The notes under the pieces were generated by a model, which saw only the letters and a program-made list of their open reading frames with translations, searched no databases and was not told where the DNA came from. The translations under genes were made by a program, and so were the position numbers. From an uncultured virus (IMG/VR IMGVR_UViG_3300025174_000013) (lineage: Duplodnaviria; Heunggongvirae; Uroviricota; Caudoviricetes): DNA of 20,000 nucleotides. Where the stretch lies: positions 55,145 to 75,144 of the IMG/VR virus record IMGVR_UViG_3300025174_000013; one strand, written 5' to 3'. Below, one piece after another: positions 29-17,612 of this stretch (its first letter is position 1; each line of letters starts with the position of its first letter).

Positions 29-859
29 ATGCAAAAACTGGCATCACTATTAGCGATTTTGTTAATCGTGGGATTATTAGGTACAAATTTCGCATATGGG
101 GATTATACAGAATACATGAAAATAAGAATAGAATCTGATAAACCAAATGTTTGTGTATTTGAAGCCGAAAACCCACAAGTAGATTTTGCAAAAAGAGGAC
201 TTTATAAAAAAACCGTAAAATGGATAAGTGAATGGTCTAAACAACTGGAAAAAGAAGCCAATGGAGGTAATTGGGATTTTACATATGAATTCATACATAA
301 TTCTACTCACTTTGATAAAAAACCAACAGATTTCCCTCAATGTAATGTATTGATAGTATTTGATGCCGAGAATTTAAATCCAATAGAAAGTGATTTAGGT
401 ATGGCACAAGGATACACATCTTTTGATTATAGAAGTTCAACTCATAAATTTTCATTTATAGATATTTTCACATTTGCACCAACAAATGAAATAAATTTAG
501 GTCAATTAGATTTTACCAATATGACAAAAAATGCAGATGGCTCATATGAAGTAAAATTAGGTAAAGAAATGTTTACATCAGAACCAATTTCTGATGAAGC
601 AATTAGAATAGTTATTCAACATGAATTTGCTCATGCAATGGGATTAGGTCATTGGAGTGATACAACCAAAAATGATTTTAAATCGATCATGGTTCCACAA
701 TTTGATGTACGAGCAAAAGGATTAGAAAATATAAAAATAACACTTGATGATATCAAGGCATTAATAGAACTTTATGGTGAAGATGGATTTAGTAAATATT
801 ATCAAGTTCTAATTCCAGATTTAGCATATGGATGGGAAAAATCAGTAATGAAAAATTAG
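29..859 (+). CDS. Secreted matrixin/M10-like (metzincin) zinc metalloprotease
   Basis: N-terminal hydrophobic signal peptide; HEFAHAMGLGH (HExxHxxGxxH) zinc motif followed by Met-turn SIMVP. Confidence 0.85.
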   Translation: MQKLASLLAILLIVGLLGTNFAYGDYTEYMKIRIESDKPNVCVFEAENPQVDFAKRGLYKKTVKWISEWSKQLEKEANGGNWDFTYEFIHNSTHFDKKPTDFPQCNVLIVFDAENLNPIESDLGMAQGYTSFDYRSSTHKFSFIDIFTFAPTNEINLGQLDFTNMTKNADGSYEVKLGKEMFTSEPISDEAIRIVIQHEFAHAMGLGHWSDTTKNDFKSIMVPQFDVRAKGLENIKITLDDIKALIELYGEDGFSKYYQVLIPDLAYGWEKSVMKN

Positions 860-3079: not shown

Positions 3080-4063
3080 ATGATTCAAGGATTTGTAAAG
3101 CTTTACAGGGAAAAAGGACTAAATGTAATACCACTTAAACCAAAGTCTAAATTTCCAGATGAAACAAACATGCCAATAAATCCACAAACTGGTAAGCGTG
3201 GTTGGAAAATATATCAAACTGAAAAGTGTAATATAGAAATTAAAGAAGGGCAAAATGGAGCAGTGCTTTGTGGTGAATCATCGGGTAATTTAGTGGTTAT
3301 AGACCTTGATGATCGTGAGTTATCAAAAGTTTTTGATGACTGGGAAAAAAGAAAAAATGAAACATTAATAGTTGAAACTGGAAAAGGATATCACGTATGT
3401 GTTAAACCAAAAGGAAAGTTGCCAGAAAAAAGCTTAAGATTAATAAATGATAAAGGTCAACGTATAGACATTCAATCACAAGGAACTTACGTATTAATTC
3501 CGGGTTCAATTAATCCAGAGACTGGTAAAGAATATAAAATAATTTCAAGTACATTGGATATACAGGATATAGACTTGGATGGTTTCATTAATAGTTTATC
3601 GAATCATGGGTTCAATCCAGAACGTATAAAGAAAGGAGTTGTTGAAATTTTAAAAGGTGTAAAAGAAGGAGAAAGAGATTATAGTGTATACACGCTTGGG
3701 GTAGCGATGAGACATAGTTTTGGTTTAAAAGATGCTGGATTATTATCATATCTAAATCATTTTAATCAAACATCGGTATTTCCCCCACTGCCAGATGTAG
3801 TGATAAAACAAAAAGTTCAAAGTGTGATGAACGCCGATGTTGAGAAAATTAGATTTAAAGAATTTTTAGAGAAATTTGATTTAAAAGAAGTAAAATTGAA
3901 ATATGACGATAATTTTTGGAAAGATGTAGAAGATTTACGTATACACAATAAACTTCAATCTAAAGATTTAAAACTTGAATGTGTAATTTGTAAAAAATTG
4001 GTAGCATATAATCCACAAGATACTACACATAGGGGGCACATCATTACAATTATATACAAGTAA
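3080..4063 (+). CDS. Bifunctional DNA primase-polymerase (prim-pol, AEP superfamily) with PriCT-like domain
   Basis: VIPL..KSKFP N-terminus, VVIDLD, ETGKGYHV, GTYVLIPGS; GERD...N...PPLP PriCT-like segment; C-terminal CxxC...HxxH. Confidence 0.85.
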   Translation: MIQGFVKLYREKGLNVIPLKPKSKFPDETNMPINPQTGKRGWKIYQTEKCNIEIKEGQNGAVLCGESSGNLVVIDLDDRELSKVFDDWEKRKNETLIVETGKGYHVCVKPKGKLPEKSLRLINDKGQRIDIQSQGTYVLIPGSINPETGKEYKIISSTLDIQDIDLDGFINSLSNHGFNPERIKKGVVEILKGVKEGERDYSVYTLGVAMRHSFGLKDAGLLSYLNHFNQTSVFPPLPDVVIKQKVQSVMNADVEKIRFKEFLEKFDLKEVKLKYDDNFWKDVEDLRIHNKLQSKDLKLECVICKKLVAYNPQDTTHRGHIITIIYK

Positions 4064-7073: not shown

Positions 7074-7532
7074 ATGCCAGCTAATCAGATAATTCATGAT
7101 ATATGGATAGGTGATTTAGAGGACGCTCTAGTATGGGATGGTAACTTATTATGTGTTTTAGAAACTAGACCTGAAAGACTACCAGTAGATGCATTACATA
7201 TTCCTATTCTGGCATTAAGATTTGAAAAAACATTCATGAAAGATAAAGATGGAAATGATACCAATTACCAAATATCTGGATTTGTTGATAGAGCATTACC
7301 AGTACAATTAGACGCAGTTGCACATGTTATTCAAAACCATATAGACGCAAAAGAAAGGCTAATGGTTCATTGTGGGGCTGGGATGGAACGAAGTCCGTTA
7401 GCATTAACATGGTACTTACACACTAGAATGGGTCTTACATTAGAAGATGCATTTGCGTTAGTAAAGACAAAAAGACCACAAGCACAGAACAGATTAGAAT
7501 GGTTAAATATCAGCAATCCATTAAACAAGTAA
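7074..7532 (+). CDS. Dual-specificity protein phosphatase (CX5R)
   Basis: IWIGD N-terminus, VHCGAGMERS active-site loop, AFALVKTKRP. Confidence 0.9.
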   Translation: MPANQIIHDIWIGDLEDALVWDGNLLCVLETRPERLPVDALHIPILALRFEKTFMKDKDGNDTNYQISGFVDRALPVQLDAVAHVIQNHIDAKERLMVHCGAGMERSPLALTWYLHTRMGLTLEDAFALVKTKRPQAQNRLEWLNISNPLNK

Positions 7533-10264: not shown

Positions 10265-10896
10265 TAATTAAGGTAAAGGAAGAGTATTTAGTATTAGTTC
10301 CAAGACCAACAAAAGAAGAACGTATGGCATTAAAAGAAGATATAATGCTACGCGGACAACATGATCCAATAGTAATTAATAGAGATGGATTCATATTAGA
10401 TGGATATACAAGATATGAAATTTGTCAAGAACTTGGAATAGAAGTTAAATATAGAATACAAGAATTTGCAACAAAAGAAGAGGAAAAAAGATATGTAATA
10501 AACTGCAATGTAAGAAGAAGACATCTGAATGCATTTCAACGAGTAGGATTAATGTACGACATGTATGTTATGGAAAAAGCACTTGCATTAAAAAGACATT
10601 ATGGTAATAAAGATTATAACGGCATAAAAAGAGGAAATGTAGGTGACATAGTAGGAAAAACGATAGGAGTAAATGGTATGACAGTATCAAAATCAGTATA
10701 CATAATGGAACATGCAAGTACTGAAATACAGGATAAGGTAAAAAATGGGAAAATAAGTATAGAAAAAGCCTATCTTGATTTAAAAAACCTCAGTCATGCA
10801 AGAATACTTCGTAAAAGCTATATCAAGAATGAAACAAAGTTAATATGTCCTCATTGTCAACAAATATCAAAGAAAAAAGAGTGGAAAATAGCATGA
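10252..10896 (+). CDS. ParB/Srx-like N-terminal domain protein with HTH-like region and C-terminal CxxC
   Basis: LKEDIMLRGQHDPIVIN...ILDGYTRYEIC.ELG, NVRRRHLN. Confidence 0.8.
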   Translation: MPKIIIKVKEEYLVLVPRPTKEERMALKEDIMLRGQHDPIVINRDGFILDGYTRYEICQELGIEVKYRIQEFATKEEEKRYVINCNVRRRHLNAFQRVGLMYDMYVMEKALALKRHYGNKDYNGIKRGNVGDIVGKTIGVNGMTVSKSVYIMEHASTEIQDKVKNGKISIEKAYLDLKNLSHARILRKSYIKNETKLICPHCQQISKKKEWKIA

Positions 10897-11135
10897 CTGA
10901 ACAAACAAAACTAGACTTGCGTGGGCTTTTTGTGCCAGAGACTTTGTTTAAAATAGAAATAGAAATGAGTAAAATGGAAGACGGTGATACTGTATTAATA
11001 CTAACAGATGACCTTAACTCGGAAGAATGGGTAATAAGATGGGCTCACAAAAATGGTCATGAGTTAATAGCATCAGAGAAAGTTGCAACTGGATTAAACA
11101 TAACATTAAAGAAAGGTGGGTATTCTATACAATGA
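10893..11135 (+). CDS. TusA/SirA-like protein lacking the catalytic cysteine
   Basis: LDLRGLFVPET vs family LDxxGLxCPxP; GDTVLILTDD, W..KNGHEL, ITLKK; ATGA overlap gives start 10893. Confidence 0.75.
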   Translation: MTEQTKLDLRGLFVPETLFKIEIEMSKMEDGDTVLILTDDLNSEEWVIRWAHKNGHELIASEKVATGLNITLKKGGYSIQ

Positions 11136-11343: not shown

Positions 11344-11478
11344 ATGAATCAAAAAGAAGCACAAGATTTGATCAAGGAATTGCGAGAGATTGGAGCCATT
11401 GTTGATTTTAGACCAGCACGGGCAAAAGAACGACTTGATCAAGTGATTGCAACTTTACGGAATGGGATAACTTCATGA
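11344..11478 (+). CDS. 44-aa helical microprotein coupled to the helicase
   Basis: MNQKEAQDLIKELREIGAIVDFRPARAKERLDQVIATLRNGITS; leaderless start, ATGA overlap. Confidence 0.7.
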   Translation: MNQKEAQDLIKELREIGAIVDFRPARAKERLDQVIATLRNGITS

Positions 11479-12635
11479 GTGTTAATCTTCGTGACTATCA
11501 AACTGATGCAAAAGACAAGTTCTTTAATGCTAACAAACGGGGGACATTTTTATTCGCAACAGGAACGGGCAAAACCGAAATAGCAATAGGAATCATGGAA
11601 CAATACTTACAAGAACGAAAAGAAGTTAAAATCTTGTTTCTTGCTCCTAGAATAACATTAGTAGAACAAACCACTGAACGAATAAGGGGTTATGGTTTAA
11701 TTGCTGGCTCATATTATTCACTTGAAAAGGAATTAGAGCAACCAATAATTGTTTCAACTTATCAAAGCATTAGTAATGAATTACATCTTATCAATGAGTT
11801 TGACTTTATTGTTTTTGATGAAGTACATTTGGCTTCTGATTATGCTGAGAAATTCAGTGAAATAATGAAAGTTGCTGATGATCAAGGCTTGCATATGTTA
11901 TGTTTAACCGCTACTTTGGATAAATTCAATTATGAACGATTTGGTACAATTCTACGAACTTGTCCAGTATTAGGCGAAATAGATTTGAATGATGCCATTA
12001 ACAATGATTATCTTTCTCCAGTCGTAGTTGAAGATCATAGCGTCAATCTTTCACCTGAAAGTCAAAGACTTTACAATGAATACAGTAATGCAATTAAAAA
12101 TTTAAGTGATGCATTAGGTACATCAAATCCGCGAGATATACAACGAATGCTTGGACGGGTAAGAGAAGCAGGAATGTGGTTTAAAACAGTTCAAGCAAGA
12201 AAGCTTCTTATGGAATATAATCATGAAAAAGCAGATAAAGTATTAGAATTAGTAAAAACCTTCAATGGTGAACAAACCATAATATTTTGTGAAAGAACAA
12301 AGACATTAGAATTACTCAAGGAAAAAATGGGTGATTGTTTTGAATTCATTACAGCAAAAACGGGGAAGAAAAAGAGAAGAGAAATACTTGAAAACTTTGG
12401 TAAAACATTTCATGTAATTGGCACAGTTCACACATTAGACTTAGGTTATGATGTACCAAACATACGACACGGAATCATAGTGGCTAGCAATAAGAATGAA
12501 ACTACCATAGTTCAGCGTATCGGGCGTGTGGTTAGAAAAGCAGAAGGTAAGACTTTATCAAAAATTTATGTCATTTACGCAAAAGGAACACACGAACAAG
12601 GCTTATTCCAAAAAATCAAAGACGCGGTAAAATAG
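11475..12635 (+). CDS. Superfamily 2 helicase (XPB/Rad25-like)
   Basis: LRDYQ Q-motif, ATGTGKT, DEVH, TAT, LGYDVP, QRIGRVVR. Confidence 0.92.
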   Translation: MSVNLRDYQTDAKDKFFNANKRGTFLFATGTGKTEIAIGIMEQYLQERKEVKILFLAPRITLVEQTTERIRGYGLIAGSYYSLEKELEQPIIVSTYQSISNELHLINEFDFIVFDEVHLASDYAEKFSEIMKVADDQGLHMLCLTATLDKFNYERFGTILRTCPVLGEIDLNDAINNDYLSPVVVEDHSVNLSPESQRLYNEYSNAIKNLSDALGTSNPRDIQRMLGRVREAGMWFKTVQARKLLMEYNHEKADKVLELVKTFNGEQTIIFCERTKTLELLKEKMGDCFEFITAKTGKKKRREILENFGKTFHVIGTVHTLDLGYDVPNIRHGIIVASNKNETTIVQRIGRVVRKAEGKTLSKIYVIYAKGTHEQGLFQKIKDAVK

Positions 12636-14465: not shown

Positions 14466-14909
14466 ATGAGCGAAATACAAGAACCAATGGAGCTAACTAC
14501 CATAGATGTAGAAAACATGACTCCTAAAGAACAGGAGATATACCATAGAAGAATGCGTGTATTTGCTAATCTATTCGTACCGCCTGCAGTTAGGCTAACC
14601 CATGAAGCACTTGCCGAAAACGAAAAGGTAGAAAGGGATACTATAACAAGGGACATAAGGTGGATAAAGATAACATATCCAGATTTATGGTCAAATGAAC
14701 AAATAAAGCATGGATTTGCCTATAGTATGCTAAAAGTATCTAATATGTATGAAGTCATGATTAGGGAATTATACGATAGTTTTCAAGCCACAACTGATAT
14801 ATTCGAGAGAATAGCAATAGCTAAAGCGTTGAATGATTTAATGCCAACATACACCAATTCAAAGGCACATGGAGTAATCTTGGAAAAAATCAAAGGCACG
14901 GTGAAATGA
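14466..14909 (+). CDS. Probable terminase small subunit
   Basis: HTH-like LTHEALAENEKVERDTITRDI plus helical body; ATGA-coupled directly upstream of TerL. Confidence 0.65.
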   Translation: MSEIQEPMELTTIDVENMTPKEQEIYHRRMRVFANLFVPPAVRLTHEALAENEKVERDTITRDIRWIKITYPDLWSNEQIKHGFAYSMLKVSNMYEVMIRELYDSFQATTDIFERIAIAKALNDLMPTYTNSKAHGVILEKIKGTVK

Positions 14910-16744
14910 ATAAAAAATTCATAGATGATAAGTTTTACTCTGACTTTGAAAAAATAACATCTTCGGAAGTAGATTTACCAACATTACCAATGGATCCAAT
15001 GAAGTGGATAGAAGAAGCTAGACCATTTGTTGAAGGAAGACCACGTTCATTCCTAATAGCACCATTTTGGGATGACATTTACAGGGATAACAATACACAT
15101 AAGTTTATTATAGGTGGGCGACAAATATTCAAATCTACTTATACTACCGATATATTGGCACATGAAACAACAGCTTTTCCAAAGTCTCAAGTTTGTTACG
15201 TTACTTTTGATGATGTGAATAAGGCAGGATTTTCAAGGCAGAAATTACAATATGGTACATTTGAGCCAAATCCAATACTAAAACAATTTCCAAGGCATGA
15301 TTTGGGTAACGTGGGGGAAATTTCGCTAAAGAATGGTAGCACAATATACATTACTACAGATCATGGACAATACAGGCATGTAGAAGGTAAATCATTAGAT
15401 CATGTTATGTTAGATGAAGCACAATATCAAGATATACAATATTTTGACAAAGTAACATTAACAATGACACAAACCATGGGTAAGATTACAGTATTAGGAA
15501 TTGGTGGAGAAAGTGGATCACCTTATGAAGAATTATGGCGTAGAACAGATCAACGAAAATGGATATATGATGATCTTAATTGGCGTGAGAAATTGCAGTT
15601 TGGACTAGTTAAGAATCACAGAGGACAAGAAAAACATGGATTAATTATAGGCGAATACTTGAAAGAAGTATTGCGTGGACATTGGGAAGTAACAAATCCA
15701 CGAGCAACACATTGGCACGGATATTATTTACCACAACATATATTTCCATCTATTCCATTAACAATAGAATCAGCAATTAATGATTATGATGTAGATCCAA
15801 TTTACTCAATAGAATATAAGAGAAAACATATGAATAGAGCACTTTATACTTCTCACGTATTGGGATCATTCTACAAGGCACAAAGAAGACCAATTACAAA
15901 CGAAATGATAGAAGCATGTATGAAGAATTATTATTACATGAAATTATTGACTCCAGAGCAAATAGGAGATATTAAGGATACATATGGAGACAGAGTATTT
16001 ATTTCAATGGGAGTGGACTTTGGTTCTGGCAGTCCGTCACAAACTGTTATATCAATTTTAATTACATGGAAAATAAAAGAATCCGATAAATTGCAGACAA
16101 GTACACATAGAATTCAATTAGCTCTTCTTGAGCCAAGACCACAGGAAAATCAATTAGACCAAGCCGAATATATTAATTGGATGTTTAAAACGGCAAAATG
16201 TGATATAGGAATAGGAGATCTTGGTTATGGAGCTAATCAAGTAATGATCATACAGGAAGGTGGTTATAACAGACAAACAGGAGTTAAATTCGCGGGAGTA
16301 GGTGCAAATAAATTTTATGGTTCAAGAACTATAGGAGACGAAACAAAACCACTAATGGAATTCACTGAGAAACAGGACGAACATGGTAAACAAAATCCAC
16401 ACATTAAGTTAGACAAATCACAAATTATACAGGAATTCATAGACTTTATGGAAGAATACGTACCACATCCAGACAATCCATTTGTTGAGGATTATCAAAG
16501 ACTAAGGTTTATGATACCAAATCATCCAGACAGCAGATCACAAATAGATTTCATATTCCATGATTGGGTGCAATTAGTTAGAGTTGACTTGCCAGAAGAA
16601 TTAGAAAAAGAAGAAATTGACAAAAGAATTTTTGCTCGGAAACAATTTTCACATCCTAGCGATTCGTTAATCTCAGTTATTTATAGTTTGCAAGGATCGA
16701 AAATTAAACAAGGGTTTCATTGGGTAACTGTCGGCAACGATTAA
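14906..16744 (+). CDS. terL: Terminase large subunit
   Basis: Walker A variant GRQIFKST, Walker B VMLDE, nuclease MGVDFG, GDLGYG, C-terminal HPSDS. Confidence 0.88.
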   Translation: MNKKFIDDKFYSDFEKITSSEVDLPTLPMDPMKWIEEARPFVEGRPRSFLIAPFWDDIYRDNNTHKFIIGGRQIFKSTYTTDILAHETTAFPKSQVCYVTFDDVNKAGFSRQKLQYGTFEPNPILKQFPRHDLGNVGEISLKNGSTIYITTDHGQYRHVEGKSLDHVMLDEAQYQDIQYFDKVTLTMTQTMGKITVLGIGGESGSPYEELWRRTDQRKWIYDDLNWREKLQFGLVKNHRGQEKHGLIIGEYLKEVLRGHWEVTNPRATHWHGYYLPQHIFPSIPLTIESAINDYDVDPIYSIEYKRKHMNRALYTSHVLGSFYKAQRRPITNEMIEACMKNYYYMKLLTPEQIGDIKDTYGDRVFISMGVDFGSGSPSQTVISILITWKIKESDKLQTSTHRIQLALLEPRPQENQLDQAEYINWMFKTAKCDIGIGDLGYGANQVMIIQEGGYNRQTGVKFAGVGANKFYGSRTIGDETKPLMEFTEKQDEHGKQNPHIKLDKSQIIQEFIDFMEEYVPHPDNPFVEDYQRLRFMIPNHPDSRSQIDFIFHDWVQLVRVDLPEELEKEEIDKRIFARKQFSHPSDSLISVIYSLQGSKIKQGFHWVTVGND

Positions 16745-16775: not shown

Positions 16776-16855
16776 GATTCAAGCCTTTTCCAAGCCGTTA
16801 AGGTAATCTGAATCCATCATTTAATCCATGGGCGAGCACCATGTAAAAAACGCTC
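16776..16855 (+). ncRNA. Candidate small structured RNA between terL and the TerL-fragment gene
   Basis: GATTCA/TGAATC plus CCTT/AAGG hairpin, then GAGC/GCTC hairpin; TTTATATT at 16745. Confidence 0.4.
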
Positions 16856-16957
16856 ACTAATATTTTAGTATCAAATTATCACAATAGTATATAAAGATCG
16901 GTGGTTTTATGATACTAAAGCATTAGTATATATTATCTATCCAACTCAATAAATGAA

Positions 16958-17281
16958 ATGGTAAAGAAGAAAATATCACATTCAAGAATATCAAGAAATT
17001 CATTGTTGTCTATTCCCAAAATAGGAAAAATTAAGTTAAAAAAGGGTTCAATAATATATGTTGCAACAGATCACGCAGAATATCATAATGTACAAGGAAA
17101 ATCATTAACTCAATTATGGTTGGATGAATTTAAAGATCCAATAGGTGATATGCAAAAACGTTTAAAGAGAGCAAAAAGATATGTACATCAGGATTTATAT
17201 CGATTATCTCTTTATGAGATAGAAGAAGCATTAAAATTGTTTGAAATACTTAAAGAATATTTGGGCGATAATGAAAAATGA
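16958..17281 (+). CDS. Small protein carrying a TerL ATPase Walker-B segment
   Basis: aa 23-57 align without gaps to TerL aa 137-171, 20/35 identical; TATA ~16926. Confidence 0.8.
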   Translation: MVKKKISHSRISRNSLLSIPKIGKIKLKKGSIIYVATDHAEYHNVQGKSLTQLWLDEFKDPIGDMQKRLKRAKRYVHQDLYRLSLYEIEEALKLFEILKEYLGDNEK

Positions 17282-17484
17282 TAGAAGTACCAATTAAGGA
17301 TTATCAATTTACGGGGATAATTGCACTAATAGGAACTGTAATGTGGTTATCAGTAGTAAGTAACATAAATGCAAGTATAGGTCATATGTTTGTTTTTGCT
17401 ATAGGTGCTAGCATGAGTGCATTAGGATTATTAACAACATTGGTTTGTTTCTTCATGGGAGATAATGTGAGGTTTAAGATATGA
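17278..17484 (+). CDS. Small two-TM membrane protein
   Basis: Hydrophobic 68 aa, ATGA overlap. Confidence 0.65.
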   Translation: MIEVPIKDYQFTGIIALIGTVMWLSVVSNINASIGHMFVFAIGASMSALGLLTTLVCFFMGDNVRFKI

Positions 17485-17612
17485 ATAAATGTAAATTTTG
17501 TGGAAGCTATGATGGTATGAGTATGCATAACAAACCATATGAATCAAGTGAGCCAGACTTTGGTTTTATTTGTAGAACATGTGGAAGAGTTTCACTAGAG
17601 GAGCCAGAATGA
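17481..17612 (+). CDS. 43-aa Zn-finger microprotein
   Basis: CKFCGS...CRTCG; ATGA overlaps at both ends. Confidence 0.65.
   Translation: MNKCKFCGSYDGMSMHNKPYESSEPDFGFICRTCGRVSLEEPE

What the first reader, a model, noticed from the sequence alone, without database searches (positions are those of the whole stretch)
16958..17281. Mini-gene carrying a copy of the terminase ATPase Walker-B segment: candidate terminase decoy or inhibitor
Seen: aa 23-57 (GKIKLKKGSIIYVATDHAEYHNVQGKSLTQLWLDE, nt 17024-17128) align without gaps to TerL aa 137-171 (GEISLKNGSTIYITTDHGQYRHVEGKSLDHVMLDE, nt 15314-15418), 20/35 identical including Walker B LDE. Nine of the 20 identical residues use different synonymous codons, so this is not a fresh DNA duplication. 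Walker A and the nuclease domain are absent; a basic N-terminus and an unrelated helical C-terminus flank the segment. The gene has its own TATA and heads a coupled operon. Established: Avs1-3 STAND NTPases sense phage large terminases, partly through ATPase active-site residues. Inference: a catalytically dead terminase mimic that titrates terminase-sensing immunity, poisons a competitor's packaging motor, or regulates its own. It could instead be a remnant captured from a related virus's terL.
Basis: partly seen in the sequence, partly recalled or inferred. Interest (0 to 1): 0.85.

Follow-up and report, generated by a model that had tools for sequence, protein, structure and literature searches.

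The report
Terminase-derived mini-protein in archaeal virus
A soil virus of ammonia-oxidising archaea carries, just after its DNA-packaging motor gene, a small gene built from one inner piece of that motor plus a new tail; related viruses keep the gene but swap versions, it probably works as a molecular mimic, and its job is untested.

Summary
ORF 16958-17281 (107 aa) matches TerL aa 111-171 of the neighbouring terL (BLASTP E 4e-12).

It is not a scar. An exhaustive search found eight other small proteins (98-154 aa, 31-51% identical) with the same build. Profile comparison aligns the family to TerL 72-173, from the Walker A remnant to Walker B, E 3.6e-25. The helical-hairpin tail has no TerL counterpart. 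A sister form carries a zinc-ribbon tail and has dN/dS 0.10.

The gene is the most discordant one in its locus:
- Viruses with 75% identical TerL share it at 99% DNA identity.
- Viruses with identical TerL carry a 35% identical version.
- Both versions occur in one sample.

TerL relatives point to Nitrososphaerota hosts.

My best reading is a binding-only mimic of TerL's conserved core segment, most likely aimed at terminase-sensing host immunity. A packaging modulator is the main rival.

Earlier notes of this scan report terminase-fragment mini-genes in bacterial phages on other DNA. This is an archaeal-virus case.

The parts
14466..14909 (+). Putative small terminase gene, assigned by position only. 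Its stop overlaps the terL start.
   Evidence: ORF list. No Pfam or PHROG hit. Only 29% identical to the 212-aa protein at the same place in L005/L016, although TerL is 75% identical.
14906..16744 (+). terL, large terminase, 612 aa, with ATPase and nuclease domains.
   Evidence: phrog_675 at 1e-29. AF2 model with mean pLDDT 82.9. Foldseek best matches are T4 gp17 3cpe at 1e-11, Sf6 gp2, PhiV-1 TerL 8dgc_E and P74-26 TerL. 394 homologues at E <= 1e-10.
15116..15139 (+). TerL Walker A (G71 R72 Q73 .. K76 S77 T78). Long members of the mini family begin with a remnant of it; the window's mini protein lacks it.
   Evidence: These columns are invariant in the 32-sequence TerL alignment. hhalign starts at TerL R72. 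Sequences of the long members.
15236..15418 (+). TerL aa 111-171, the source-like segment: end of helix 2, beta hairpin 138-141/146-151, loop with invariant Y156 G161 K162, and Walker B strand 166-169 with D170 E171.
   Evidence: BLASTP and tblastn. Secondary structure of the TerL model. Invariant columns.
16856..16927 (.). Conserved 27-nt imperfect inverted repeat around a TATATAAAG box, just upstream of the mini gene. It is kept in all three virus lineages and could be an operator or an RNA hairpin.
   Evidence: the repeat finder I1, 78% complementary. RNA fold -19.7 kcal/mol, z -4.0, 1 of 200 shuffles as good. Conserved in alignments A1 and A4.
16927..16934 (+). TATA-like box about 25-30 nt before the ATG; inferred archaeal promoter of the mini-gene operon.
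   Evidence: Sequence. The same spacing of TTTATATA-like boxes is seen before many first genes of the window. Inference only, no transcript data.
16958..17281 (+). The mini gene, 107 aa (P0001), first gene of a tightly coupled run of small genes.
17024..17128 (+). Core TerL-like segment (aa 23-57): hairpin, loop with G47-K48, and Walker B strand with D56-E57.
   Evidence: 20/35 identical to TerL 137-171. Family invariants I25 K28 S31 Y42 V45 G47 K48 D56 E57. AF2 strands 22-26 and 32-36, with pLDDT about 50.
17138..17275 (+). New C-terminal helical hairpin (aa 61-106) with no counterpart in TerL.
   Evidence: AF2 helices 61-77 and 81-106, pLDDT above 90. hhalign stops at residue 59. Only generic helical-hairpin or TPR-like matches. 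Family invariants A72 Y81 L85 L102.
16855..17322 (.). 468-bp block that is 98.9% identical to viruses whose terL is only 78% identical in DNA; a recently exchanged patch.
   Evidence: blastn of the window against L004 and L005. Alignment A1. Contigs in runs X17 and X18 join this block to the L005-type upstream flank at 16858.
17278..17484 (+). Downstream coupled gene for a 68-aa predicted membrane protein. Its first 45 nt belong to the exchanged block.
   Evidence: ORF list and translation. ATGA overlap with the mini stop. 69-74% identical between lineages. No family hit.

Best explanation
SHOWN.
- The ORF encodes a real small protein of a family restricted to a narrow clade of tailed viruses of ammonia-oxidising archaea.
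- The family arose from a piece of the large terminase ATPase domain (TerL 72-173, from the Walker A lysine region to Walker B), joined to a new helical-hairpin tail.
- In several lineages, this one included, the family has been trimmed to the beta hairpin, the following loop and the Walker B strand.
- It cannot be an ATPase, since it has no P-loop and lacks most of the fold. It still keeps the residues that are invariant in TerL itself.
- It is the first gene of its own operon directly after terL.
- It is exchanged or replaced between co-occurring viruses independently of the TerL and TerS types.

INFERRED.
- It works by binding only, as a mimic of TerL's most conserved and normally buried core segment, shown in an exposed and largely unfolded state on a stable helical handle. 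It would compete with TerL for a partner that reads that segment.
- The partner I think most likely is a host immune sensor of terminase. The best fit is the Upx type, which is modelled to grip unfolded ATPase core strands, or an Avs-like sensor that reads active-site residues.
- On this reading the fragment occupies or misdirects the sensor before or while TerL is made.
For: Homology to TerL:
- (E 4e-12 pairwise, 3.6e-25 profile against profile).

A real family:
- 8 further small proteins at 31-51% identity cover both the TerL-like part and the tail, out of 13 hits with E <= 1e-3 in 1.84 billion representatives.
- 2 more came from the profile search.
- Invariant residues S31 Y42 G47 K48 D56 E57 coincide with TerL invariants S145 Y156 G161 K162 D170 E171.

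The TerL-like segment is the conserved core:
- Mean pairwise identity is 0.53 for the segment against 0.33 for the tail, over 36 pairs.
- In L017, L018 and P0024 the tail is replaced by a zinc ribbon while the segment stays.
- L017 against L018 gives 13 synonymous and 7 non-synonymous changes, dN/dS 0.10. The neighbouring gene gives 0.65.

The segment is not folded on its own:
- AF2 pLDDT is about 50 for the segment and above 90 for the tail.

Conflict-like population pattern:
- Amino-acid identity for window-L005, window-L016 and L005-L016 is 100/35/35% for the mini protein, 75/75/100% for TerL, 29/29/100% for TerS, and 69-98% for downstream neighbours.
- L016 and L022 are 100% identical over more than 5 kb up to the promoter and 40-67% identical across the ORF.
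- In run X13, loose ends at 16936 and 17275 read into the other version, so both occur in one sample on the same flanks.

Own promoter and accessory operon:
-.

Precedent and plausibility (passages of PMC13601566):
- T4 vs.8, Ksap1 and Ksap2 are TerL-ATPase-like accessory proteins that engage Avs2. The authors raise an anti-defence role as a possibility.
- Upx is modelled to bind unfolded terminase ATPase strands and occurs in bacteria and archaea.
- Its Supplementary Data 5 lists one Nitrososphaerota homologue.
- Hosts are inferred from TerL relatives: 22 of 23 genome loci lie in Nitrososphaerota, Nitrosopumilaceae or Thaumarchaeota assemblies.
Against: - No expression data were found.
- The paper describes Upx recognition as independent of amino-acid sequence. 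That would not by itself explain why D56-E57, G47-K48, Y42 and S31 stay invariant.
- Avs2 and Avs3 bind a large folded surface, which this fragment cannot reproduce.
- A fragment that binds a sensor might trigger it rather than block it.
- Only one Nitrososphaerota Upx entry was seen in that supplement, and nothing shows that this virus's host has any terminase sensor.
- All nine aligned members are strongly basic, pI 9.3-10.3, which fits nucleic-acid binding equally well.
- K48 is M in L017 and L018, so not every 'invariant' holds in the wider family.
- The gene is absent from the fetched flanks of 34 of 37 TerL-relative viral loci and of 23 of 23 genome loci. It is therefore a lineage-specific extra. 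Some of those flanks were short.
- Mosaic exchange of small genes is common in viral accessory regions and need not mean conflict.
Confidence: 0.35

Rival explanations
1. Packaging modulator. The fragment docks on TerL itself, for example at the inter-subunit face of the ATPase ring where a neighbour's loop preceding Walker B normally sits, or by strand exchange with nascent TerL. It then delays, tunes or poisons motor assembly, either of the virus's own motor or of a co-infecting relative's.
For: - It lies directly downstream of terS-terL in 4 of 4 helical-tail loci read (window, L004, L005, L016).
- It keeps the Walker B strand and the loop before it (G47-K48), which are invariant in TerL.
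- Trans-acting fingers from a neighbouring subunit are established for phi29, P74-26 and D6E terminases (passages of PMC7617512). That the P74-26 finger lies in the loop just before Walker B is recalled, not checked. A PDB entry for a P74-26 R139A mutant exists.
- Long family members keep a Walker A remnant, R..FK(S/T)T.
- Co-occurring related viruses exist that could compete.
Against: - Versions are not linked to TerL or TerS type. Version 1 sits with two TerL types that are 75% identical and two TerS types that are 29% identical, and one TerL type sits with two versions that are 35% identical. That is unexpected for a specific partner of the virus's own motor.
- A poison aimed at residues invariant in all TerLs would hit its own motor too.
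- It is absent from more distant relatives that have the same motor.
- The zinc-ribbon form is not next to terL within its 1.9-2.2 kb contigs.
- It has its own promoter, separate from terS-terL.
Confidence: 0.25
2. Exapted scaffold. The TerL ancestry is only historical, and the protein now does something unrelated to terminase. One possibility is a small basic nucleic-acid-binding or regulatory protein of the accessory operon.
For: - All nine aligned members have pI 9.3-10.3, with 16-38 Lys+Arg residues.
- The N-terminus is Lys/Arg/Ser-rich.
- One subfamily has a zinc-ribbon tail.
- The neighbours are small zinc-finger and membrane proteins of unknown function.
Against: - It does not explain why precisely the TerL-invariant residues, including the catalytic-type D-E pair, remain invariant in a protein that cannot hydrolyse ATP.
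- It does not explain why the TerL-like part is more conserved than the tail.
Confidence: 0.2
3. Decaying remnant of a captured or duplicated terL with no function of its own; an open frame by chance.
For: - It is short and next to terL.
- It has no family annotation in Pfam, PHROGs or PADLOC.
- It is restricted to a narrow clade.
Against: - Ten intact helical-tail family members and P0024 of the zinc-ribbon form, found as protein clusters at 31-51% identity to the query, have conserved motifs in both parts.
- dN/dS is 0.10 in the zinc-ribbon pair.
- A conserved promoter region lies upstream in three lineages.
- The tail is a confidently folded hairpin.
- One cluster was seen on 22 contigs and another on 13.
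Confidence: 0.05

Closest known systems
Large terminase ATPase domain (the window's own TerL; T4 gp17-type; solved relatives 3cpe, 4ife, 8dgc_E, 4zni by Foldseek)
   Same: It is homologous to TerL 111-171, and the family to TerL 72-173. It keeps the NGS-type hairpin, the G-K loop and the Walker B hhhhDE.
   Different: It has no beta-1 strand or P-loop, no strands after Walker B, no coupling motif and no nuclease domain. It adds an unrelated helical hairpin. It cannot be an ATPase or a motor subunit.
Phage T4 vs.8 (and Ksap1/Ksap2): stand-alone TerL-ATPase-like accessory proteins that engage Avs2 (Evans et al. 2026, PMC13601566; passages read)
   Same: These are virus-encoded extra proteins related to, or shaped like, the terminase ATPase domain. 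They are lineage-restricted and of unknown function, and the authors raise an anti-defence role as a possibility.
   Different: [quoted passage not shown] The protein here is a 35-100-residue piece of that domain with a foreign tail, in an archaeal virus. No sequence comparison with vs.8 was made, because I held no vs.8 sequence.
Terminase sensing by Upx through an unfolded ATPase core (AlphaFold 3 models in PMC13601566)
   Same: It offers a known kind of partner that would read exposed TerL core strands, which is what this protein displays. Upx occurs in archaea, including one listed Nitrososphaerota entry.
   Different: Upx is a host defence protein, not a relative of this gene. The strands named in the paper (beta 1, 4, 5, 6) were not mapped onto this TerL. 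No Upx inhibitor or decoy is described in the passages I read.
Satellite-encoded packaging-interference proteins (SaPI Ppi, PICI Rpp) and eukaryotic microProteins (both recalled from general knowledge, not checked here)
   Same: These are small proteins that act by binding, either to redirect or block a packaging component, or as a truncated relative of the protein they interfere with.
   Different: As recalled, Ppi and Rpp target the small terminase and are not terminase fragments. MicroProteins are a eukaryotic concept. Neither is related in sequence.
Terminase-fragment mini-genes noted earlier in this scan in bacterial phages (notes e1-5353421, e1-5941893, e1-5353423, e1-6068637, e1-5362130; AI notes, unchecked)
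   Same: The design is the same: small accessory genes that carry one conserved inner piece of TerL. One note names the 'NGS strand plus Walker B', which is the same piece as here. Function is untested in every case.
   Different: They come from other genomes and other hosts (bacteria). I could not compare sequences, so whether they share descent or arose independently is unknown.

Membership tests
Large terminase ATPase (TerL, T4 gp17 / Terminase_6N type) | Walker A P-loop (here G-R-Q-x-x-K-S-T) after strand beta 1 | tested here: not met
   P0001 starts after this region. Its N-terminus aligns with the stretch after the P-loop helix in long members. hhalign begins at TerL R72 only for long members, which keep R..FK(S/T)T but no beta 1 and no glycines.
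Large terminase ATPase (TerL, T4 gp17 / Terminase_6N type) | Walker B hhhhDE with the catalytic glutamate | tested here: met
   L-W-L-D56-E57 aligns with M-L-D170-E171, and D and E are invariant in 9 of 9 members.
Large terminase ATPase (TerL, T4 gp17 / Terminase_6N type) | Complete ASCE sheet with strands after Walker B and a coupling motif, plus the C-terminal RNase H-like nuclease | tested here: not met
   The alignment to TerL ends at residue 59. AF2 shows only a hairpin and two helices. Pfam Terminase_6N is matched weakly by 1 of 9 members, E 0.013.
T4 vs.8-type stand-alone TerL ATPase-like proteins | [quoted passage not shown] | tested here: not met
   There is no Walker A, and only about a third or less of the domain is present. 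Direct comparison with vs.8 was not possible.
Pfam DUF5886 (PF19233) | Score at or above the gathering cut-off (36.5 bits), shared by relatives | tested here: not met
   20.1 bits, E 8.6e-4, for P0001 only; 1 of 9 family members match.
TPR / helical-repeat proteins (tail only) | Significant match to TPR models or a specific helical-repeat fold | tested here: inconclusive
   TPR_14 and TPR_2 are matched by 1 of 9 members each at E 0.07-0.1. The PDB profile search hits a designed helical repeat at 7e-8 and STI1/SRP72 at 0.06-0.09. The best VIA-align Z is 7.5, within the range the tool calls a common arrangement.
Anti-defence decoy or antagonist of terminase sensors (Avs1-3, Upx) | Binds the sensor and lowers its response to TerL | not testable with these tools
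No PADLOC hit. Only circumstantial support.
Fragment-type competitive inhibitor ('microProtein' design) | Small protein descended from one part of a larger protein | tested here: met
   Trimming from long to short forms is visible in the family alignment.
Fragment-type competitive inhibitor ('microProtein' design) | Acts by non-productive binding to the parent protein or its partner | not tested
   No complex prediction or assay.

The most novel reading that the evidence does not exclude
Viruses of ammonia-oxidising archaea carry a fast-swapping gene whose product displays the invariant, normally buried hairpin-to-Walker-B strands of the packaging ATPase in an unfolded state on a stable handle. 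It would serve as bait or a blocker for host sensors that detect terminase by its unfolded core (Upx type) or its active-site residues (Avs type). Together with the terminase-fragment mini-genes that this scan noted in bacterial phages, this would define a general counter-defence strategy, reached independently in different lineages and not yet described: a fragment decoy of a conserved viral pattern. This would be its first case in archaeal viruses.
Probability: 0.25. Interest if true: 0.85.

Novelty: new variant of a known kind. Interest (0 to 1): 0.62.

Why it matters
Terminase is the viral protein that several prokaryotic immune sensors read, because it cannot change its core. Little is known about how viruses answer this, and in the papers I searched no terminase-derived inhibitor or decoy is described. 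Only full-domain look-alikes of unknown role, such as T4 vs.8, are mentioned.

This gives a compact and well-defined test case. The protein has 107 residues. The family shows which 35 residues matter. Natural versions with different tails exist, and the population pattern looks like conflict.

If the mimic reading is right, it links archaeal virus-host conflict to the Avs/Upx field and shows how a virus can turn its own unchangeable motif into a tool. If the packaging-modulator reading is right instead, it would be a natural fragment inhibitor or regulator of a viral DNA motor.

It also adds an annotated family to the almost unannotated genomes of viruses of soil nitrifying archaea.

Tried and rejected
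- **Complex prediction.** Complex prediction of the mini family with full-length TerL was answered 'not available' and nothing was folded. Binding to TerL is therefore untested.
- **DUF5886.** The match is below the cut-off and is shared by only 1 of 9 members. I treat it as chance.
- **Tail copied from the TerL C-terminus.** Second-domain HMM hits near TerL 490-540 have independent E-values of 380-930, and hhalign finds no second region. Rejected.
- **Recent gene conversion with terL.** The longest shared DNA word is 9 nt and DNA identity is 69%. Rejected.
- **The 99% block kept as a DNA-level site (pac or cos).** The other version at the same place is unrelated in DNA. This is unlikely for the ORF. 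The upstream inverted repeat is conserved in all three lineages and may be regulatory.
- **K48 as a trans-acting finger.** The position of the P74-26 finger is recalled, not checked. L017 and L018 have M at this position. I did not use it as evidence.
- **RNA families and tRNAs.** None found in the window. No sigma-70 or terminator excess.
- **Expression.** No RNA holder was listed among 19 runs.
- **More genomic contexts.**
  - The scan with A3 found no relative.
  - Viral scans with P0012 and P0016 found none.
  - The contexts of P0003-P0007, P0009, P0011, P0016 and P0023 remain unseen.
  - The 7 weak loci L009-L015 (43% over residues 25-59) were not examined.
  - L019 is an unrelated TPR protein.
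- **ESM Atlas.** Best feature score is 0.80, with structure rows of generic helical bundles. No lead.
- **Family and structure libraries.** PHROGs and PADLOC give nothing for family members. The PDB sequence search with the TerL profile gives nothing at E <= 0.01 and only a chance chitinase row at E <= 10.
- **Papers.**
  - 'terminase'+'Avs'+'decoy' gave 10 papers; in the two I opened, 'decoy' is used only in the proteomics sense.
  - 'large terminase'+'dominant negative'+'fragment' gave 1 unrelated paper.
  - 'truncated large terminase' gave 0.
  - 'ammonia-oxidizing archaea'+'defense systems'+'AVAST' gave 0.
- **Portal and capsid genes.** PHROG scans of 29 large ORFs outside the window and of window ORFs recognised neither. 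The record is 68% complete.
Full report
**The observation**

The window is the last 20 kb of a 75,144-bp IMG/VR virus record estimated 68% complete. ORF 16958-17281 (+, 107 aa, P0001) lies 213 nt after terL (14906-16744, 612 aa, P0002).

- TerL is secure. It matches phrog_675 at 1e-29 and gives an AF2 model of mean pLDDT 82.9. The best Foldseek matches are T4 gp17, Sf6 gp2, PhiV-1 TerL and P74-26 TerL.
- BLASTP aligns mini 3-57 with TerL 111-171 (24/61 identities, E 4e-12).
- DNA identity is 72/105 and the longest shared word is 9 nt.
- No other TerL-like place exists in the window or the record.

**It is a family, not a scar**

A near-length word-index search found only the protein itself. 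The exhaustive phmmer search of 1.84 billion representatives gave 13 hits at E <= 1e-3:
- the query itself;
- eight small proteins (98-154 aa, 31-51% identical) that cover both the TerL-like part and the tail;
- two that look like terL fragments (P0013, P0014);
- two repeat proteins that I set aside (P0008, P0010).

A profile search added P0023 and P0024.

In the nine-sequence alignment the invariant residues are I25 K28 S31 Y42 V45 G47 K48 D56 E57 in the TerL-like part and A72 Y81 L85 L102 in the tail. S31, Y42, G47, K48, D56 and E57 correspond to residues that are invariant in a 32-sequence TerL alignment spanning 51-88% identity.

Profile-profile comparison aligns the family with TerL 72-173 (probability 99.65%, E 3.6e-25) and nothing beyond. 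Long members begin M-R-K-K-F-K-T-T, opposite the TerL Walker A G-R-Q-I-F-K-S-T. They continue through helix 1, strand 2 and helix 2.

The window's protein keeps only a short remnant of that N-terminal part, S-H-S-R-I-S-R-N against S-M-S-R-I-S-R-N in P0007. After that come the hairpin, the loop and the Walker B strand. So the family started as TerL 72-173 plus a new tail and has been trimmed in several lineages.

**Structure**

AF2 on the family alignment gives two confident helices, 61-77 and 81-106 (pLDDT above 90). It gives a low-confidence TerL-like part (about 50) with a hairpin at 22-26/32-36.

In the TerL model the matching elements are the hairpin 138-141/146-151 and the Walker B strand 166-169, inside the ATPase sheet.

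The tail resembles only generic helical hairpins. The Pfam DUF5886 hit is below the cut-off and is matched by 1 of 9 members.

**A second architecture**

L017, L018 and P0024 join the same TerL-like segment to a zinc-ribbon tail. That segment is closest to the P0012 version, 64-68% identical over residues 4-31.

L017 against L018 shows 13 synonymous and 7 non-synonymous changes (dS 0.35, dN 0.036, dN/dS 0.10). The neighbouring 136-aa gene gives 0.65.

Across the helical-tail family the TerL-like segment is more conserved than the tail, 0.53 against 0.33 mean pairwise identity over 36 pairs. The TerL-derived segment is therefore the selected core, and the tail is replaceable.

**Context and population pattern**

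Searching viral contigs with TerL gave one record with identical TerL (L003) and two with 75% identical TerL (L004, L005). In L004 and L005 the mini protein is 107/107 identical.

The DNA block 16855-17322 is 98.9% identical to L004 (5 mismatches in 468), while terL is 78% identical. A metagenome contig (L016) has a TerL identical to L005's. At the same slot it carries a version only 35% identical to the window's.

L016 and the L005 contig are 100% identical for more than 5 kb up to the promoter. They are 40-67% identical across the ORF and 82-98% afterwards.

| Gene | window-L005 | window-L016 | L005-L016 |
|---|---|---|---|
| TerS | 29% | 29% | 100% |
| TerL | 75% | 75% | 100% |
| mini | 100% | 35% | 35% |
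| downstream membrane protein | 69% | 69% | 74% |
| next gene (orf128) | 83% | 84% | 98% |

All values are amino-acid identities.

Laying contigs of four DNA runs showed two things:
- In X13, loose ends at 16936 and 17275 read into the other version, so both versions occur on the same flanks in one sample.
- In X17 and X18 the block joins the L005-type upstream flank at 16858.

The gene is thus exchanged independently of TerL and TerS types.

It is also narrowly distributed. Of 37 TerL-relative viral loci, only the 3 closest have it within the fetched flanks. None of 23 genome loci has it. Some flanks are short, so a few absences are weak.

**Host and expression signals**

Of the 23 genome loci with TerL relatives (41-54% identical), 22 lie in Nitrososphaerota, Nitrosopumilaceae or Thaumarchaeota assemblies, several on contigs of 0.18-1.9 Mb. 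One is labelled Flavobacteriaceae. The 19 sequencing runs holding the stretch are soil or sediment DNA, and none is RNA.

Many first genes in the window have a TTTATATA-type box about 30 nt before the ATG. Internal genes have GGAGG/GGTGA-like sites, the archaeal pattern. The mini gene has such a box at 16927-16934.

It then overlaps the next gene by ATGA, and the following small genes are similarly packed.

Upstream lies a conserved 27-nt inverted repeat (16856-16882 / 16901-16927). As RNA it folds with z = -4.0. It is kept in all three lineages.

**What it does**

Shown: this is a domesticated, selected, non-enzymatic TerL fragment with its own promoter, in a variable accessory region. The rest is inference.

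A protein that cannot hydrolyse ATP yet keeps the TerL-invariant residues is most simply something that is read by a partner of TerL. Several features fit a target outside the virus's own motor better than a regulator of that motor:
- its versions are not linked to TerL or TerS type;
- it turns over fast;
- two versions coexist in one sample;
- its distribution is narrow;
- it has a separate promoter.

Evans et al. 2026 (PMC13601566; passages and one supplement table read) report three relevant things:
- Stand-alone TerL-ATPase-like proteins (T4 vs.8, Ksap1/2) engage Avs2, and the authors say these may be anti-defence proteins.
- Upx is modelled to grip unfolded ATPase core strands.
- Upx occurs in archaea, with one Nitrososphaerota entry in the homologue table.

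I therefore rank the readings as follows:

| Reading | Confidence |
|---|---|
| Mimic aimed at terminase-sensing immunity | 0.35 |
| Modulator or poison of the packaging motor | 0.25 |
| Unrelated function of a basic small protein (pI 9.3-10.3) | 0.20 |
| Functionless remnant | 0.05 |

Points against my first choice:
- No binding test was possible.
- Upx recognition is described as sequence-independent.
- Avs pockets need a folded domain.
- Binding might trigger a sensor rather than block it.
- No sensor is known in this host.

**Comparison and novelty**

The protein is not a TerL. Walker A, the full fold and the nuclease were tested and are absent. It is not a vs.8-type full-domain paralogue either.

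My paper searches found no terminase-fragment protein of this kind. Supplements of bioRxiv papers could not be seen.

Earlier notes of this scan, which are AI notes I did not check, describe terminase-fragment mini-genes in several bacterial phages. One of them has the same 'NGS strand plus Walker B' piece. The design may therefore be recurrent, and this is an archaeal-virus instance with natural tail variants.

I rate it a new variant of a known kind, with interest 0.62.

Noticed in passing
window 14466-14909; L005 3345-3983: The gene in the small-terminase position is replaced between lineages. The window's protein has 147 aa and L005/L016's has 212 aa, and they are only 29% identical, although the adjacent TerL is 75% identical. 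Neither has a Pfam or PHROG hit in the window.
   Followed up: partly
window 16856-16927: A conserved 27-nt imperfect inverted repeat encloses a TATATAAAG box. As RNA it folds at -19.7 kcal/mol, z -4.0, and it is kept in three virus lineages. It could be an operator over the mini-gene promoter or a small RNA hairpin. An earlier scan note (e1-5712400) reports structured RNA elements in the related 98-kb virus.
   Followed up: partly
L017 1435-1701; L018 1436-1699; protein P0024: A sister architecture joins the same TerL hairpin-to-Walker-B segment to a CxxC...CxxC zinc-ribbon tail. It sits inside a run of small genes with no terL within the 1.9-2.2 kb contigs and is followed by a small membrane-protein gene, as in the window. 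dN/dS is 0.10.
   Followed up: partly
L005 5849-6028; L016 7604-7783: A 59-aa zinc-ribbon ORF lies between terL and the mini gene in the L005/L016 lineage and is absent from the window. Conversely, the window's 43-aa CxxC ORF at 17481-17612 is absent from L005. Small genes come and go throughout this region.
   Followed up: no
window, upstream of about a dozen genes (e.g. 2360, 3080, 4477, 5282, 12668): TTTATATA-type boxes lie about 30 nt before first-gene ATGs, and GGAGG/GGTGA-like sites precede internal genes. This is an archaeal promoter pattern and agrees with the Nitrososphaerota host inferred from TerL relatives.
   Followed up: partly
window 29-859, 3080-4063, 7074-7532, 10845-11135, 11475-12635: The accessory and replication genes include a matrixin-like metallopeptidase with a signal-like N-terminus, a Prim-Pol, a dual-specificity phosphatase, a TusA-like sulfurtransferase, and a helicase whose best PADLOC match is PbeA (5.7e-51).
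   Followed up: no
G000:C1 564-19829 and 25767-33125, 47651-54595: There are very large ORFs (2306, 1105, 1395, 1072, 1378, 1057 and 1255 aa) with no PHROG match at E <= 1e-5, bar one of unknown function. No portal or capsid gene was recognised in the 75-kb record.
   Followed up: no
contig ends near the mini gene (L004 ends at window-equivalent 17322): Several assemblies break within a few kb after terL, and one breaks exactly at the end of the shared 468-bp block. This is what strain-level heterogeneity at this locus would cause in metagenome assembly.
   Followed up: partly
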